Source: a virus
Virus record (IMG/VR): IMGVR_UViG_3300016471_001132
Span: 72,095 to 136,094 of that record
DNA length: 64,000 nucleotides
Reading direction: 5' to 3' (one strand)
The first letter of the stretch is position 1. Each line of letters begins with the position of its first letter. Below are positions 59,688 through 64,000 of this stretch, in pieces. Both the position numbers and the translations under genes were made by a program. The notes below the pieces were generated by a model. It had not been told where the DNA came from, did not search any database, and worked only from the letters and a program-made list of their open reading frames with translations.

Positions 59688-59905
59688 TACTGACGGGGAG
59701 GCAATTGCTGACTACGGAGATGTTTTTTCCAGCGGCTTTTGGCTGCACCTTTTTTGAGCTTGCGACGGGTGGTTGGCTTAACATAAGTTTCGCGATCGCG
59801 GAGTTCCAGAAGTAATCCAGAATTCTGTATTTTTTTCTTAAACTTGCGCATGGCTTTTTCTACATTGCCATCCTGCACTGTAACGGTTCTACCGGTTAGT
59901 TTCAA
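59684..59905 (-). CDS. rpsU: 30S ribosomal protein bS21
   Basis: NVEKAMRKFKKK...ELRDRETYVKPTTRRK; TTG start with AAGGAG SD. Confidence 0.93.
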   Translation of the reverse strand: MKLTGRTVTVQDGNVEKAMRKFKKKIQNSGLLLELRDRETYVKPTTRRKLKKGAAKSRWKKHLRSQQLPPRQY

Positions 59906-61101
59906 ACTGCTATCTCCTTCATGGGCTTGGGATTATTTACCAAGTCTGCATCAATATCTACGCGGTTTATTCCTGCTTTATGATAGGCACGCAAATGGAA
60001 CATGTGCGGCATCAAGGTATGTTCAATCTCGCTGTGTAAAGCGCGGGCACCAGTTCCACTGCTGTGAGCCCGATCCACTATGGTATCCAGCGCGGATTGT
60101 TGGAAATTCAATTCAACTTGATCTTGCCGGAACAGCCACTGATATTGATCGATATAGTTGTTTTTGACTTCGGTGAGGATCCGTGCCAAGTCCGCTCGTT
60201 CCAGGGGCTGGAGATTTACCACACCCGGAAAACGCCCTACGAATTCTGGTATCATGCCGAATCTGACTAGATCATCAGGATTGACTTGATCTAAGCTGAT
60301 GGCTTGATGTTCTTTGACCGATGAATTGAAACCTATACTGGATCCATTCACACGATTGCCTACGATTTTGTCGAGCCCAACAAAGGCACCCCCGGCAATA
60401 AACAGTATATCGGTAGTGTCTATCTCTATCATTTCCCCAGCAGGATGTTTGCGACCTCCTCCGGCTGGTATACGGCAACGAGTACCTTCGACTATTTTTA
60501 GCAAAGCTTGTTGTACTCCCTCCCCAGACACATCTCTGGTTATGGATGCTGATTCACTTTTGCGAGCAATTTTGTCGATCTCGTCTATAAAGATTATGCC
60601 CTGCTGGGTCCGCTGTATATCGTGTCCAGAATTAGCATAAAGCCTAGAAATCAGACTTTCCACATCATCACCCACATAGCCTGCTTCGGTGATGCTCGTG
60701 GCATCTGCTATGGCAAACGGGACATCCAGATATCGTGCCACTGTCCTGGCCAACAGCGTTTTTCCGGATCCAGTGGGCCCGATCATGAGTATGTTTGCCT
60801 TGGCGATTTCTTGGTCAGGATCCTGATTCTTGATCCGTTTGTAGTGATTGATAATGGCCACGCTCAGCATGATCTTGGCCTGTTCTTGACCTATGCAATA
60901 TTGATCCAGATACTGTTTGAGTTTCCTTGGATCATTGATATCTGTGGCAACAGTTTTCGCTGGACTATCTACTAGCAGATCCTGGCACAAGGCTACGCAT
61001 TCGTTGCAGATGGCCACAGCATCACTGACGATGAGTTTGGCCACTGAATCTTTGTGTTTACCGCAGAAACTACAGGTCTGCAACCCTGCGCTGTCGGTCA
61101 T
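59902..61101 (-). CDS. clpX: ATP-dependent Clp protease ATP-binding subunit
   Basis: Zn finger CSFC...CNEC, GPTGSGKT, DEIDK, RDVSGEGVQQALLK, GARAL. Confidence 0.97.
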   Translation of the reverse strand: MTDSAGLQTCSFCGKHKDSVAKLIVSDAVAICNECVALCQDLLVDSPAKTVATDINDPRKLKQYLDQYCIGQEQAKIMLSVAIINHYKRIKNQDPDQEIAKANILMIGPTGSGKTLLARTVARYLDVPFAIADATSITEAGYVGDDVESLISRLYANSGHDIQRTQQGIIFIDEIDKIARKSESASITRDVSGEGVQQALLKIVEGTRCRIPAGGGRKHPAGEMIEIDTTDILFIAGGAFVGLDKIVGNRVNGSSIGFNSSVKEHQAISLDQVNPDDLVRFGMIPEFVGRFPGVVNLQPLERADLARILTEVKNNYIDQYQWLFRQDQVELNFQQSALDTIVDRAHSSGTGARALHSEIEHTLMPHMFHLRAYHKAGINRVDIDADLVNNPKPMKEIAV

Positions 61102-62588
61102 ATCAAGTCCGTGCGCAGACGAGATTCAATCTGCAATCGTTCAGCATCGGTCAGCAGTTCTGGATCGTATTCACCCGACCCGATCTTGGCTATGAGATGA
61201 TTGATGTATTCATCGTTGAAAGCATAAGAATCAGATTGATCCTTGACTACTTCGATCCATTTTTCTCCGTTGAATTTGTGTAGTGTAGTAGGAAGATGAT
61301 CAGTCCTGATCCAAATCTGACCTTTGGTGGGAGTGGTAGGAAATTCAGAACCGAAACCCGACTCGCTGGCTCTGAGATAATCTTCCCAGGGAAGCCGATC
61401 TATCTGTCCTGTTTCCAAGAGATGGCGCTGTTCCTTTAGAGTTTTGTCAGGGTTATCAGATTTCCAGCGCCTTTGTGCTGTTTTGATATCGTTGTCTTGA
61501 GATTCATCAGTATCTATTTCTGCCGAGTTCTGGGTCAGGATTGTAGGTTGCTGGCTTTTGATTCTCTGTGTTATATCTTGTCCGCCCCATTGGTCTGCCG
61601 GGATGCTGGTAGGTTGTCCCACCACCTCAGCCAAGGGTTGGTCGCCCAGATCAGTTCTTGCAGGGTGTCCATCCAAATCCTTGGGAATACTTGCATCATC
61701 AGGTAAAATTCCATTTTGCGGTCTCCTAAACTTTTTCCAGAGGTCCTCGACCCAGACCTTGGTCTTTGTGACAGCATCGTTGACTGGCTGATCAGGAGGA
61801 TCAACCTGTTCTTCTCGATCTCTTCTGCGTCCATGCTTTTCCCACTTGTAACTCTCTGTGGCCGCCAGCAACATGAATATGGCCAAAGGATCAAACACAG
61901 TGACCAAGATTATGATGACCCAGCGCACAGCTTTTTCAAGCAGGTTGGCGTCGGGATTGTCGCCGTAGATCAAGGCCGCTATGTATTTGATCGGGCCTAC
62001 CTCGGCTTCGACCTTTCGGGCCTGGGCAGCGATGGGTGCTCTTTGCTCGTTTAATTTGACTATTTCTGCCTGTGATCGACTGATGTCCTGCTGTAATCGA
62101 TTTCTTTCCGCGGCCTGTTGTCGTCGTATCTGTACTGCTCGTTCAGCACCACGGTCATCGGTGGTACGGCCCAACACCTGATCGACCTGTGCATCCATCT
62201 GTTTCAATGCAGTCCTAGCCGCTTCGATGTTGTCTCTTTGTGTTTTGATCTTTTCATCAAATATAGCTACCTGGGCAGAAATATCACCAGCTGGAACGGC
62301 CTGGTCCAGGTGTGCTTTTGACAGGAAACCAAATATGCCCATGCTGGTTATCAGCATGAGCACGCCCACTGCTGGAACGAGATAGGCTTTCATGGCAAGA
62401 CGGCATTGGCGCCAATATTCGTGCAGCCATACCGTGACCACTAATTTAGCGATCTCCAGGATCGATCCCATGACAGCCACAGGCACTACCGCTGCCGCGA
62501 AAATAGCTATGAGGCCGATGATGCTATAGAAAGCAGCAATGGTGCTAAGACATAGAGCCACTGCCAACATGAGATAAGTCAAAAACAT
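61098..62588 (-). CDS. Multi-pass membrane/coiled-coil protein (496 aa)
   Basis: N-terminal TM segments, GIFGFLSKAH, EVGPIKYIA, FDPLAI; TAAATA 7 nt before ATG. Confidence 0.75.
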   Translation of the reverse strand: MFLTYLMLAVALCLSTIAAFYSIIGLIAIFAAAVVPVAVMGSILEIAKLVVTVWLHEYWRQCRLAMKAYLVPAVGVLMLITSMGIFGFLSKAHLDQAVPAGDISAQVAIFDEKIKTQRDNIEAARTALKQMDAQVDQVLGRTTDDRGAERAVQIRRQQAAERNRLQQDISRSQAEIVKLNEQRAPIAAQARKVEAEVGPIKYIAALIYGDNPDANLLEKAVRWVIIILVTVFDPLAIFMLLAATESYKWEKHGRRRDREEQVDPPDQPVNDAVTKTKVWVEDLWKKFRRPQNGILPDDASIPKDLDGHPARTDLGDQPLAEVVGQPTSIPADQWGGQDITQRIKSQQPTILTQNSAEIDTDESQDNDIKTAQRRWKSDNPDKTLKEQRHLLETGQIDRLPWEDYLRASESGFGSEFPTTPTKGQIWIRTDHLPTTLHKFNGEKWIEVVKDQSDSYAFNDEYINHLIAKIGSGEYDPELLTDAERLQIESRLRTDLI

Positions 62589-62594
62589 AATTGT

Positions 62595-62906
62595 TTATTT
62601 AGTGGCCTGGTATTTGCTATCACTGTGTACTTGTAGGCTGAATTTCACGCTTATCCAGGTGGCAAAGCGCGGATCAGGCACTTCAAACCATACTGGCATG
62701 GGTGCAGATCTCGTGAAAGTTATCCTGCCCACATTGGCCTGGCTTTCTAGTTTGCGTTTGACCTTGCTCTGTGCCCGCCAGTTCTTGCCGAACCATGATC
62801 GGCACTCTCGGATAATGCCATACCATTGTTCGGTGGTGCGCACATAGAACCAAAACCGGTGCAGTTCCGGGGTCGTTATTTTAAGTGGATCGAGTTGCTT
62901 CGACAT
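62595..62906 (-). CDS. Hypothetical protein (103 aa)
   Basis: ORF directly downstream of the structured RNA. Confidence 0.7.
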   Translation of the reverse strand: MSKQLDPLKITTPELHRFWFYVRTTEQWYGIIRECRSWFGKNWRAQSKVKRKLESQANVGRITFTRSAPMPVWFEVPDPRFATWISVKFSLQVHSDSKYQATK

Positions 62907-62923
62907 AAAGTTTAGAGATCTCC

Positions 62924-63151
62924 GAACTGATACAGCACAACAGCCTGCTTTACACCATGACCGTCCTCTTCAGGCCAACTCCCCACATCAGAGGCCTTCT
63001 CAGGGCTTGATGTGGGTTTTGGACAGGACCCCAGCGGTCTGCTCCTGCCCAGGATGGTGCCACACCTCGAGGACTCATGTGGGCATCTGCCATGGACCCG
63101 CTTCCCGGGTCAGGTCCCGCCCAAGGCCTCAATCGTGCCCCTTCACTGCTC
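62924..63151 (-). ncRNA. Putative structured non-coding RNA (~228 nt), family unrecognised
   Basis: Own promoter; 5'/3' ends pair; at least six further helices; about 60% GC by hand count. Confidence 0.7.
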
Positions 63152-63155
63152 TAGT

Positions 63156-63184
63156 ATTTTAGCAGGAACTCACTGGATTGTCAA
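63156..63184 (-). promoter_or_regulatory. Sigma70-type promoter of the structured RNA
   Basis: TTGACA-17-TAAAAT. Confidence 0.85.
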
Positions 63185-63390
63185 ACTTTATCGCGACTTT
63201 CGAACAGGCTCCATTCGCGTTCGTCGGTCACGATCCTGTTGTAGAGAGAGTCGTATTTCCGTTCTAGAAGCCGGATGCGAAGCCAAAGGAAAACCACGGC
63301 CGTGACAAGCACCGTGGTCGTGAGTCCCCAACCTGCTATGAGACTAAAGAACCAATTCCAAACACTGGCGAACTCAGACAGTATATCCAC
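63181..63390 (-). CDS. Single-TM hypothetical protein
   Basis: Hydrophobic central segment. Confidence 0.65.
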   Translation of the reverse strand: MDILSEFASVWNWFFSLIAGWGLTTTVLVTAVVFLWLRIRLLERKYDSLYNRIVTDEREWSLFESRDKV

Positions 63391-63463
63391 TGCGGCCTTT
63401 CCACCATTTCATGATGCGCCATTTCACATAGGCCAACCATTCACTACGAGGAATCTTAGTCAT
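63374..63463 (-). CDS. 29-aa Trp-rich micropeptide (not in track)
   Basis: MTKIPRSEWLAYVKWRIMKWWKGRSGYTV; overlaps both neighbours. Confidence 0.4.
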   Translation of the reverse strand: MTKIPRSEWLAYVKWRIMKWWKGRSGYTV

Positions 63464-63626
63464 TTTCCACGCCTTTCTTTTCGATGATACTGCCTACAAC
63501 ACCACAGGCCAGGCCTACCGCCAGGAGCACCCAATCGCCCATGACCAGACTCACTACCGCGCACACAAAGGCCGTGAGGAACAACACAAACGGAACATCT
63601 CCTACTACATCATTCAACCAGCTCAT
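63456..63626 (-). CDS. 56-aa two-TM protein (not in track)
   Basis: MSWLNDVVGDVPFVLFLTAFVCAVVSLVMG...; ATGA overlap with the ligase stop. Confidence 0.65.
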   Translation of the reverse strand: MSWLNDVVGDVPFVLFLTAFVCAVVSLVMGDWVLLAVGLACGVVGSIIEKKGVEND

Positions 63627-64000
63627 AGTTTTTCATCTTTCTCAAATCCACGGAAACGAACAAAGCGCGGGAATCTCAGACTGTACGATCCGTCTTGATT
63701 TTGCGTGACTGCGTCAGCTTCGACTTCGACCACTCGATCAAGTAAGTGATCCCGACCACGCCAATACTCATCACGATCGCTATCGCTAAGGCCGCTACCA
63801 ACATTAACACGAATAGATCTTCCATTGTCCACTCCTTCGCAGATCAAGGCACCCAATCTACCCAGATTGCGTCCGGTGCCTTCTTCGACGCCAACTATAT
63901 TTAAGTCCACTGTGATAGTGGGCTTCCATTTCATCCAGAAACTCGACCGCTTGCATTCATAGGGAGCATCCAGATCCTTGATCATGATGCCTTCATAGCC
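63623..64000 (-). CDS. lig: ATP-dependent DNA ligase, C-terminal part (partial)
   Basis: GYEGIMIKD, WMKWK, GRLGAL, VGSG, LRFPRFVRFR. Confidence 0.95.
   Translation of the reverse strand, partial: GYEGIMIKDLDAPYECKRSSFWMKWKPTITVDLNIVGVEEGTGRNLGRLGALICEGVDNGRSIRVNVGSGLSDSDRDEYWRGRDHLLDRVVEVEADAVTQNQDGSYSLRFPRFVRFRGFEKDEKL

What the first reader, a model, noticed from the sequence alone, without database searches (positions are those of the whole stretch)
62924..63184. Unrecognised ~228-nt closed, multi-branched RNA with its own near-consensus promoter
Seen: TTGACA-17-TAAAAT (63184-63156) fires into ~245 nt with no credible gene, about 60% GC by hand count. On the minus strand the ends zip into a bulged rod (GAGC/GUUC, UGA/UCA, GGCACGAU/GUUGUGCU at 63139-63132 with 62941-62934, GGCCU/AGGCU). 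The rod encloses nested junctions: GACCCG-GGAAG-CGGGUC (63111-63095), CCAUGGC/GUCAUGG, CCACAU/GUGUGG, ACCAUCCU/AGGACGGU, GGGCAGGA/UCCUGUCC and a perfect 9-bp CCCACAUCA/UGAUGUGGG capped by GCC-CUGAGAA-GGC, a T-loop-like loop. A second UGAAGA and an alternative 8-bp GAGGCCUU/AAGGCCUC pairing hint at tertiary contacts or a switch. The hallmark sequences of tmRNA, RNase P, SRP, Y RNA and group I introns are absent. Inference: a new phage ncRNA class (protein or RNAP decoy, tRNA-elbow binder), or a large cis-leader for the 103-aa gene.
Basis: partly seen in the sequence, partly recalled or inferred. Interest (0 to 1): 0.82.

Follow-up and report, generated by a model that had tools for sequence, protein, structure and literature searches.

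The report
New structured leader RNA, huge phages
A roughly 240-base folded RNA that matches no catalogued family sits between a strong promoter and a conserved small gene in about 150 uncultivated giant-phage genomes, and most likely controls that gene's operon, which ends in the chaperone ClpX.

Summary

- **Promoter and composition:** The promoter TTGACA-17-TGcTAAAAT is present. The following 243 nt are 59% G+C against 49% for the window.
- **Not coding, not catalogued:** No reading frame is conserved. No Rfam 15 family matches the window or 20 diverged homologues.
- **Distribution:** The same element lies directly upstream of the 103-aa gene (gp103) in 57 of 65 distinct IMG/VR upstream regions. 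An RNA-first pattern scan found 99 more copies: 95 are followed at once by gp103, 4 sit at contig ends, and none lacks the gene.
- **Structure:** A covariance model of the core gives 88% paired cells against 67% in shuffles. 22 of 24 pairs show changes on both sides. Three helices form a three-way junction, and two further hairpins and one candidate pseudoknot also have support.
The closing "rod", CCAUGGC/GUCAUGG and the T-loop cap are not conserved.
- **Operon:** gp103, a 496-aa membrane protein and ClpX are syntenic in 81 of 81 loci.
- **Losses:** The RNA was lost at least twice while the gene was kept, which then sits directly behind the promoter.

Best reading: a cis-acting regulatory leader, possibly bound by the very basic gp103. 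Function is untested. The scan had flagged the same RNA on another genome (e1-5782501).

The parts
63156..63184 (-). Sigma-70-type promoter: -35 TTGACA (63184-63179), 17-nt spacer, extended -10 TGcTAAAAT (63164-63156)
   Evidence: The consensus scan scores it 11/12 with TG. A TTGACA-17/18-TATAAT or extended -10 box stands at the same place in almost every homologue (one of 57 had no box found), often right after an upstream terminator.
62907..63149 (-). The structured leader RNA, about 243 nt, from the conserved 5' GCAGUGAAGGGG to the base before the start codon. The transcription start is inferred at about 63150, not mapped.
   Evidence: nhmmer finds the family in 57 of 65 upstream regions. 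The covariance model hits once per locus. There is no Rfam match and no conserved ORF.
63095..63111 (-). Hairpin P2 (GACCCG / CGGGUC). Its loop region carries the conserved CCCGGGAAG (63109-63101).
   Evidence: The stem sequence differs between copies while pairing is kept (GGCAC.CACC/GGUGUGCC in L002, GAUCC/GGAUC in L151). In the swap test cognate halves pair 2.7 kcal/mol better than non-cognate halves.
63076..63095 (-). Conserved block A1, CCAUGGC (consensus CCGUGGC, 63095-63089), with a local partner GCC-CA-CAUG (63084-63076)
   Evidence: A1 is nearly invariant. The local hairpin is clear in one subgroup (CGUGGCAU/AUGC-C-CACG) but is not supported family-wide. Its GGCA also fits UGCC of block A5.
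63058..63076 (-). Conserved blocks A2 (GAGUCCUC; consensus UAA-R-UCC) and A3 (GAGGUGUGGCA; consensus AGG-U-UG-N-G-R-CA)
   Evidence: These are conserved columns in the alignments. No pairing partner was established.
62953..63059 (-). Helix c (CACCAU 63059-63054 with AUGGUG 62958-62953), which closes a three-way junction
   Evidence: 95% of cells are paired. Pair types at one position are UA 19, CG 15 and GC 1. The anchored covariation count gives five pair types. The swap test gives -2.3 kcal/mol.
63021..63050 (-). Hairpin H1 (GGGCAGGA 63050-63043 with UCCUGUCC 63028-63021)
   Evidence: All 7 modelled pairs show changes on both sides, and 90.5% of cells are paired.
63016..63021 (-). Junction block CAAAAC. 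Its first C ends H1 and its last C starts H2, leaving AAAA unpaired.
   Evidence: The A run is invariant or nearly so in 38-50 copies.
62982..63016 (-). Hairpin H2 (CCCACAUCA 63016-63008 with UGAUGUGGG 62990-62982), with a variable apical hairpin at 63006-62994
   Evidence: 8 of 9 pairs show changes on both sides, and 84% of cells are paired. The apical part is not conserved.
62973..62981 (-). Conserved block A5, GAGUUGGCC (consensus G-AGUAUGCC). Its UGCC is the candidate pseudoknot partner of GGCA in A1.
   Evidence: For the 4 pairs, 94% of cells are paired, 8 cells are compensatory, and slid controls give 19-40%. Support is moderate because most columns barely vary.
62932..62951 (-). AAA junction and hairpin H3 (GCAG 62948-62945 with CUGU 62935-62932)
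   Evidence: The first pair after AAAG occurs as C-G, G-C or U-A across copies (GC 36, CG 14, TA 2). The alignment shows the same. The swap test gives -0.9 kcal/mol.
62914..62923 (-). GGAGAUCUCU: the ribosome-binding site (GGAG) followed by the almost invariant CUCU
   Evidence: The C and U of CUCU are invariant in 33 copies. GAG/GGAG is conserved. No covarying partner was found.
62595..62906 (-). gp103: a 103-aa, very basic protein of unknown family, and the gene always found behind the RNA
   Evidence: There are 164 or more relatives, all unnamed, and no Pfam, PHROG or NCBIfam family. pI is 10.3. The AF2 model has pLDDT 81 and a generic ferredoxin-like fold.
59902..62588 (-). Rest of the operon: a 496-aa membrane/coiled-coil protein (61098-62588) and ClpX (59902-61101), with overlapping or near-abutting coding regions
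   Evidence: The ORF list is. ClpX scores 527 bits against a cut-off of 359. The membrane protein follows gp103 in 81 of 81 loci.

Best explanation
The element is the structured 5' leader of an early operon (gp103, a membrane/coiled-coil protein, ClpX) of a clade of uncultivated huge phages. Related genomes reach 315-364 kb.

Host sigma-70 RNA polymerase starts at the strong promoter. The first ~240 nt fold into:
- a 5' hairpin domain;
- a three-way junction of helix c, H1 and H2, joined by AAAA and AGUAUGCC;
- possibly a pseudoknot, GGCA:UGCC;
- a short hairpin H3.

The ribosome-binding site and start codon of gp103 follow within ~40 nt, with no terminator in between.

I propose that the fold acts in cis. 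A factor binds the conserved junction core and sets how much gp103 is translated, and through translational coupling how much of the downstream proteins. My favoured factor is gp103 itself, giving autogenous control as in the T4 gene 32 leader and ribosomal-protein leaders.

Shown: the promoter, the conserved covarying fold, the strict position, the single copy per genome, and the repeated loss of the RNA with retention of the gene.

Inferred: action in cis, the identity of the factor, and control at the level of translation.
For: - **Strict linkage.** Starting from the gene, 57 of 65 distinct upstream regions hold the RNA. Starting from the RNA, 95 of 95 copies with room are followed directly by gp103, on the same strand.
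- **Copy number.** There is one copy per record, including a complete 364-kb genome.
- **Transcription unit.** A conserved promoter stands at its 5' edge, often just after a terminator. No terminator-like site lies between the RNA and the ATG.
- **Fold.** 88% of cells are paired against 67% in shuffles, and 22 of 24 pairs change on both sides.
- **Association pattern.** Exclusive association with one gene family is the pattern of protein-binding autoregulatory leaders (established knowledge).
- **gp103 properties.** gp103 is very basic: pI 10.3, family median 10.1. It is rich in invariant aromatic residues, R17-F18-W19-F20 and W73-F74. These residues lie on predicted strands of a split beta-alpha-beta fold.
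- **Losses.** RNA-less lineages keep the same promoter placed directly at the start codon. They are nested among RNA-bearing ones, requiring at least 2-3 losses. This suits a dispensable regulatory layer.
Against: - There are no expression data. Transcript ends, processing and translation effects are all unknown.
- No covarying pairing that hides the ribosome-binding site or start codon was found. Predicted accessibility of the site is unremarkable.
- 240 nt with about 30 invariant or near-invariant core positions is far more elaborate than most protein operators. It looks more like a riboswitch aptamer or a ribozyme.
- gp103's fold match is generic (Z about 6), so RNA binding is a guess.
- gp103 stays conserved where the RNA is lost, so binding the leader cannot be its main job.
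Confidence: 0.55

Rival explanations
1. A new riboswitch class. The three-way junction and pseudoknot core would bind a small molecule or ion in the infected cell and tune translation of the operon.
For: - Size, several covarying helices and many invariant junction nucleotides (CAAAAC, AGUAUGCC, GUG-AAA-G, CCGUGGC) are typical of aptamers.
- It sits in a 5' UTR next to the ribosome-binding site.
- In one subgroup A1 has two mutually exclusive partners, the local AUGCCCACG and the distal UGCU. This could be a switch.
Against: - It is tied to a single gene family of unknown function, not to a set of metabolically related genes.
- No expression platform was detected.
- There is no ligand clue from the operon.
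- No bacterial counterpart is known. The only genome hit is a contig binned into one metagenome-assembled genome (MAG), and it looks like the same phage.
Confidence: 0.2
2. A stand-alone or processed stable RNA. The ~230-nt fold would be cut from the 5' end of the early transcript and work in trans, alone or as a particle with gp103, for example as a decoy for a host factor or defence sensor.
For: - A very strong promoter and an elaborate, G+C-rich fold suit an abundant stable RNA.
- The neighbouring gene encodes a small, basic, aromatic-rich protein that could be its partner.
Against: - It is never found apart from gp103, never duplicated, and has no terminator of its own.
- Several lineages dropped the RNA but kept gp103 and the operon. 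This argues against an obligate RNA-protein particle.
- The closed-rod shape invoked for an RNA polymerase decoy is not conserved.
Confidence: 0.2
3. A passive 5' element that senses nothing: a stabiliser against 5'-end-dependent RNases, or a translation enhancer.
For: - Its position is at the extreme 5' end of an early mRNA.
- In distant copies a small hairpin between the GAGG box and the start codon would shorten an otherwise too long spacing, as known for T4 gene 38 (sequence; the comparison is from established knowledge).
Against: Simple stabilisers need only a 5' hairpin. About 30 invariant or near-invariant unpaired or junction positions across copies whose proteins are only 43-47% identical imply a specific recognised shape.
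Confidence: 0.05

Closest known systems
Autoregulatory mRNA leaders bound by their own gene product (T4 gene 32 leader pseudoknot; bacterial ribosomal-protein leaders such as those of L1, S15 and L20)
   Same: It is a structured 5' UTR found only in front of one gene family, next to the ribosome-binding site, at the head of a translationally coupled operon. It includes a possible pseudoknot.
   Different: It is much larger and more intricate (about 240 nt, at least 5 helices). It has no sequence or Rfam relationship to these leaders. Binding by gp103 is untested, and gp103 belongs to no known RNA-binding family.
Large riboswitch aptamers (for example cobalamin, lysine, T-box leaders)
   Same: Size range, multi-helix junction architecture, highly conserved junction nucleotides and 5' UTR position are alike.
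   Different: No Rfam model matches (E<=10 in the window, E<=5 in 20 homologues). No expression platform was found. It is associated with a single gene and seen only in phages.
Large phage-associated ncRNAs of unknown function (GOLLD, ROOL)
   Same: These are also elaborate structured RNAs carried by phages or prophages and discovered by comparative genomics, with unknown function.
   Different: GOLLD and ROOL are 500-800 nt, lie near tRNA genes and are not leaders of a fixed downstream ORF (my knowledge of the literature). Neither Rfam model matches here.
   Same: It is a promoter-driven RNA of about 200 nt.
   Different: 6S RNA is a long closed rod with a central bubble. Here the end-to-end rod is not conserved, the core is a three-way junction, and there is no 6S Rfam hit.

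Membership tests
Any Rfam 15 family (4227 models) | Covariance-model score at or near the family's gathering threshold | tested here: not met
   Window 60000-64000, both strands, E<=10: no hit inside 62907-63190. Twenty diverged homologues, E<=5: no hit in the RNA region.
tRNA / tmRNA | Cloverleaf or tRNA-like domain detected by ARAGORN | tested here: not met
   ARAGORN finds 0 genes in the whole window.
6S RNA | Conserved terminal closing helix that gives a rod with a central bubble | tested here: not met
   Pairing between the 5' 40 nt and the 3' region shows no cognate advantage (diff -0.36 kcal/mol, rank 0.50). The core is a three-way junction.
Riboswitch (as a kind) | Conserved aptamer fold supported by covariation, located in the 5' UTR | tested here: met
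   88% of cells are paired against 67% in shuffles, and 22 of 24 pairs show double changes. It is always between the promoter and the start codon.
Riboswitch (as a kind) | Expression platform: a terminator, or alternative pairing that hides the ribosome-binding site | tested here: inconclusive
   There is no terminator-like site in the leader. No covarying partner of the SD box or start region was found. The ensemble accessibility of the SD is about 0.4. Pairing between conserved segments cannot be tested by covariation.
Riboswitch (as a kind) | Direct binding of a small ligand | not testable with these tools
   This needs in-line probing, ITC or similar.
Autogenous protein-binding leader | Element found only upstream of the gene for the presumed binding protein | tested here: met
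   95 of 95 RNA copies with downstream sequence are followed by gp103. There is one copy per genome.
Autogenous protein-binding leader | The encoded protein binds the leader RNA | not testable with these tools
   Only indirect hints exist: pI 10.3, invariant aromatic residues and a ferredoxin-like fold with generic matches at Z about 6.
Protein-coding gene (the 60-aa ORF at 62950-63132) | Reading frame kept across homologues | tested here: not met
   Distances between conserved blocks fall in all three classes modulo 3. The longest open stretch on the sense strand has a median of 49 codons and a minimum of 29. There is no Pfam hit.

The most novel reading that the evidence does not exclude
This is a previously undescribed class of large structured RNA specific to huge phages. 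It would be either a new riboswitch that lets the phage read a host-cell signal early in infection to set the level of a ClpX-containing module, or the RNA half of a new RNA-protein particle with gp103.
Probability: 0.35. Interest if true: 0.85.

Novelty: new variant of a known kind. Interest (0 to 1): 0.7.

Why it matters
Structured RNAs of more than 200 nt with several covarying helices and a conserved junction core are rare finds. They have often turned out to be riboswitches, ribozymes or parts of RNA-protein machines.

This one is widespread: about 150 copies in freshwater, river, lake and wastewater viral contigs. It is confined to a clade of huge phages and heads a conserved early operon that ends in a genuine ClpX. 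It therefore offers a handle on how uncultivated giant phages regulate a proteostasis or membrane module at the start of infection.

It also gives a testable function for a viral 'dark matter' protein family, gp103. The RNA and protein can be made and tested in vitro or in E. coli without the unknown host.

Tried and rejected
- **Metagenome pattern scan** with GTGAAGGGG..CCCGGGAAG. It returned 119 stretches, and all new ones were chance matches.
- **Cultured phages.** The GenBank phage collection gave no DNA or protein match.
- **My pseudoknot idea.** UAA-R-UCC (block A2) pairing with the stretch after A5 looked good in a few sequences, but the swap test gave no support (diff -0.11).
CCAUGGC/GUCAUGG and the terminal rod have no support.
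- **Other pairings.** I tested the SD box or the first 40 nt of the gene against the 5' end, A1, A2/A3, A5 and the H3 3' strand. None showed a cognate advantage.
- **RNAalifold on a plain MAFFT alignment** of 38 copies. It found only the GGCA:UGCC pairs, because the hairpins were misaligned. This was solved with a covariance model.
- **Structure-aware MAFFT** (Q-INS-i / X-INS-i) is not installed.
- **L006.** This is an HNH-adjacent stretch sharing AAAACCCACA..UGUGGGGAG. The covariance model does not recognise it, so I treat it as unrelated.
- **Sequencing runs.** No RNA holder is listed. One run guessed to be RNA holds a 241-nt contig, under 90% alike, spanning 63071-63302 across the promoter. 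It is uninformative, because contigs show no ends and may be DNA.
- **gp103 fold and family searches.** Foldseek on PDB gave no match at E<=0.001. VIA-align gave Z<=6.3, generic ferredoxin-like, ACT, HMA or pro-peptide domains. The PDB profile search and the ESM Atlas gave nothing.
- **Literature.** Three full-text searches found no description of this RNA. The library is incomplete.

Full report
**What is in the window**

On the minus strand a near-consensus promoter, TTGACA-17 nt-TAAAAT with an upstream TG, lies at 63184-63156. It is followed by 243 nt (63149-62907), then GGAGAUCUCU and the ATG of a 103-aa ORF at 62906-62595.

- The stretch is 58.8% G+C in a 48.8% window.
- Rfam 15 gives no match at E<=10 on either strand.
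- ARAGORN finds no tRNA or tmRNA.
- Folded alone, the sense strand is only slightly more stable than shuffles (z = -1.74; antisense -0.34). The window by itself would not prove a structure.
- The window is the last 64 kb of a 136-kb IMG/VR record judged 39% complete.

**Homologues**

- The 103-aa protein (gp103) has 164 or more unnamed relatives in metagenomes. It has no Pfam, PHROG or NCBIfam family.
- A profile scan of IMG/VR found 201 loci, of which 80 were fetched.
- Iterated nhmmer finds an element homologous to the window's leader just upstream of gp103 in 57 of 65 distinct upstream regions.
- In almost every copy a TTGACA-17/18-TATAAT promoter, or a terminator followed by an extended -10 box, stands at its 5' edge. 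No promoter was found for one of the 57, L165.
- In the reverse direction I used a DNA pattern built only from conserved RNA blocks. It gave 105 new loci. 99 are true copies by nhmmer, 95 of those are followed directly by gp103, 4 end at the contig edge, and none lacks the gene.
- Each record holds one copy, including a complete 364-kb genome with terminal repeats.
- No cultured phage has the gene.
- Among 185,579 species genomes only one metagenome-assembled genome (MAG) contig, labelled Haliscomenobacter, has the gene, and it carries the RNA too.
- Twenty diverged copies also give no Rfam hit in the RNA region.

**Not a gene**

The lengths between conserved blocks fall in all three classes modulo 3. 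Open stretches are short. The window's 60-aa ORF has no family.

**Structure**

Conserved blocks run 5' to 3' as follows:

1. GCAGUGA-GGG
2. a hairpin carrying CCCGGG
3. CCGUGGC (A1)
4. UAA-R-UCC (A2)
5. AGG-U-UG-N-G-R-CA (A3)
6. CAAAAC (A4)
7. G-AGUAUGCC (A5)
8. GUG-AAA-G
9. CUGU-A-C/U
10. GAG-NN-CUCU

I built a covariance model of the core from nine close copies and a hand-set structure. It hit 50 of 65 sources, once each and only at the expected place.

On the resulting alignment:

- 88.0% of cells form standard pairs, against 67.1% in shuffles (0 of 500 shuffles reach the observed value).
- Partners slid by 1-3 columns give 27-48%.
- 22 of 24 pairs show changes on both sides, in 176 cells.

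This alignment was fitted to the model's structure, so its pair counts lean towards that structure. An independent, alignment-free check supports it. Cognate helix halves pair better than halves swapped between genomes for helix c (-2.3 kcal/mol), its inner extension (-1.4), H2 (-2.6) and the 5' hairpin P2 (-2.7).

Helix c (CACCAU/AUGGUG) closes a three-way junction with H1 (GGGCAGGA/UCCUGUCC) and H2 (CCCACAUCA/UGAUGUGGG). The two hairpins are joined by AAAA.

After helix c come AAA and a short hairpin H3. Its first pairs switch among C-G, G-C and U-A.

A long-range GGCA(A1):UGCC(A5) pairing that crosses helix c is 94% paired, with 8 compensatory cells, against 19-40% when slid. It is a candidate pseudoknot, moderately supported.

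- Three stems are right: GACCCG/CGGGUC, GGGCAGGA/UCCUGUCC and CCCACAUCA/UGAUGUGGG.
- ACCAUCCU/AGGACGGU is in the wrong register.
- CCAUGGC/GUCAUGG and the terminal rod have no comparative support.
- The CUGAGAA cap is specific to the window.

**Context**

- gp103 is followed by a homologue of the 496-aa membrane/coiled-coil protein in 81 of 81 loci.
- ClpX comes next wherever the fetched DNA reaches. An ATP-dependent DNA ligase lies upstream in 30 loci.
- The window's ClpX is a true ClpX, at 527 bits against a cut-off of 359.
- The coding regions abut or overlap, which suggests translational coupling.

**Losses**

Seven distinct loci in the tree lack the RNA (eight of the 65 distinct upstream regions).

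- In those inspected (L136, L153), TTGACA-17-TAnnAT sits about 6 nt before the start codon, so the mRNA would be leaderless, and gp103 starts about 9 residues later.
- A 91%-complete 315-kb genome of this kind has no significant model hit anywhere.
- On a quick maximum-likelihood tree of gp103 plus the membrane protein, these rows are nested among RNA-bearing rows and need 2-3 changes. The root is midpoint only, and the careful tree search did not finish.

**gp103**

- The protein has a pI of 10.3, with a family median of 10.1.
- Invariant residues include R17, F18, W19, W73 and F74 (F20 is nearly invariant).
- These lie on predicted beta strands of a split beta-alpha-beta fold (AF2, pLDDT 81).
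- Fold matches are generic, at Z<=6.3, so nothing can be concluded from them.
- An RRM-like mode of RNA binding is my inference only.

**Interpretation**

The strict position, the single copy, the lack of its own terminator and the repeated dispensability favour a cis-acting leader. I put this at about 0.55-0.6 in total.

Within that reading:

- The one-gene association points to control by a protein, most simply gp103 itself (about 0.3).
- The size and the conserved junction core keep a new riboswitch in play (about 0.2).
- A processed trans-acting RNA or RNA-protein particle remains possible (about 0.2).

I found no expression platform and no usable expression data.

**Novelty**

The RNA is absent from Rfam 15, and I found no paper on it in three searches. 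It is a new RNA family of a familiar kind, the structured 5' leader, and possibly a new class of riboswitch or RNA-protein particle.

The scan had already flagged the same RNA on another genome (note e1-5782501). That flag is not independent evidence.

Noticed in passing
L136:1440-1503, L153:1440-1503 (also L139, L142, L152, L154, L155, L193): Relatives that lack the RNA. In L136 and L153, the two inspected, a TTGACA-17-TAnnAT promoter sits about 6 nt before the gp103 start codon. This implies a leaderless mRNA and a protein about 9 residues shorter at its N-terminus.
   Followed up: partly
L195:1243-1330, L198, L202, L205, L206, L188, L208:2240-2300: In one subgroup the promoter spacer carries GCCACC, which is complementary to GGUGGC about 45 nt downstream inside the RNA. 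This inverted repeat spans the transcription start. It could be a DNA-level operator, or a sign of read-through transcripts from upstream.
   Followed up: no
L185:1480-1503, L192:1480-1503, L196:1480-1503 and relatives: In distant copies the GAGG box lies about 17-19 nt from the start codon. A small hairpin (for example CUCUGCGCAGAG) fills the gap. This resembles the hairpin-shortened spacing known for T4 gene 38.
   Followed up: no
L006:1150-1330 (-): An HNH-endonuclease-adjacent, G+C-richer stretch in an A+T-rich viral contig has a hairpin AAAACCCACA..UGUGGGGAG like H2. The covariance model does not recognise it. It may be a different structured RNA or an intron.
   Followed up: partly
L208 (NZ_JBBAKG010000057.1, MAG labelled Haliscomenobacter sp.): This is the only hit among 185,579 species genomes. 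It is a 39-kb contig carrying the RNA, gp103, the membrane protein and ClpX, so it is probably a phage contig binned into the MAG. The canonical TTGACA/TATAAT promoters do not look like Bacteroidota promoters, so the label is a doubtful host clue.
   Followed up: partly
window 63623-64000 (-): The C-terminal part of an ATP-dependent DNA ligase (OB domain) is cut by the end of the contig. The ligase lies upstream of the RNA in 30 of 81 related loci, so the whole block is a conserved core region of the clade.
   Followed up: partly
window 62914-62923 (-) and 63101-63109 (-): Two conserved self-complementary words occur in the RNA: AGAGAUCUCU at the ribosome-binding site and CCCGGG in the P2 hairpin (CCUAGG or CCGG in other copies). 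They could allow RNA dimerisation, or they could be DNA-level sites.
   Followed up: no
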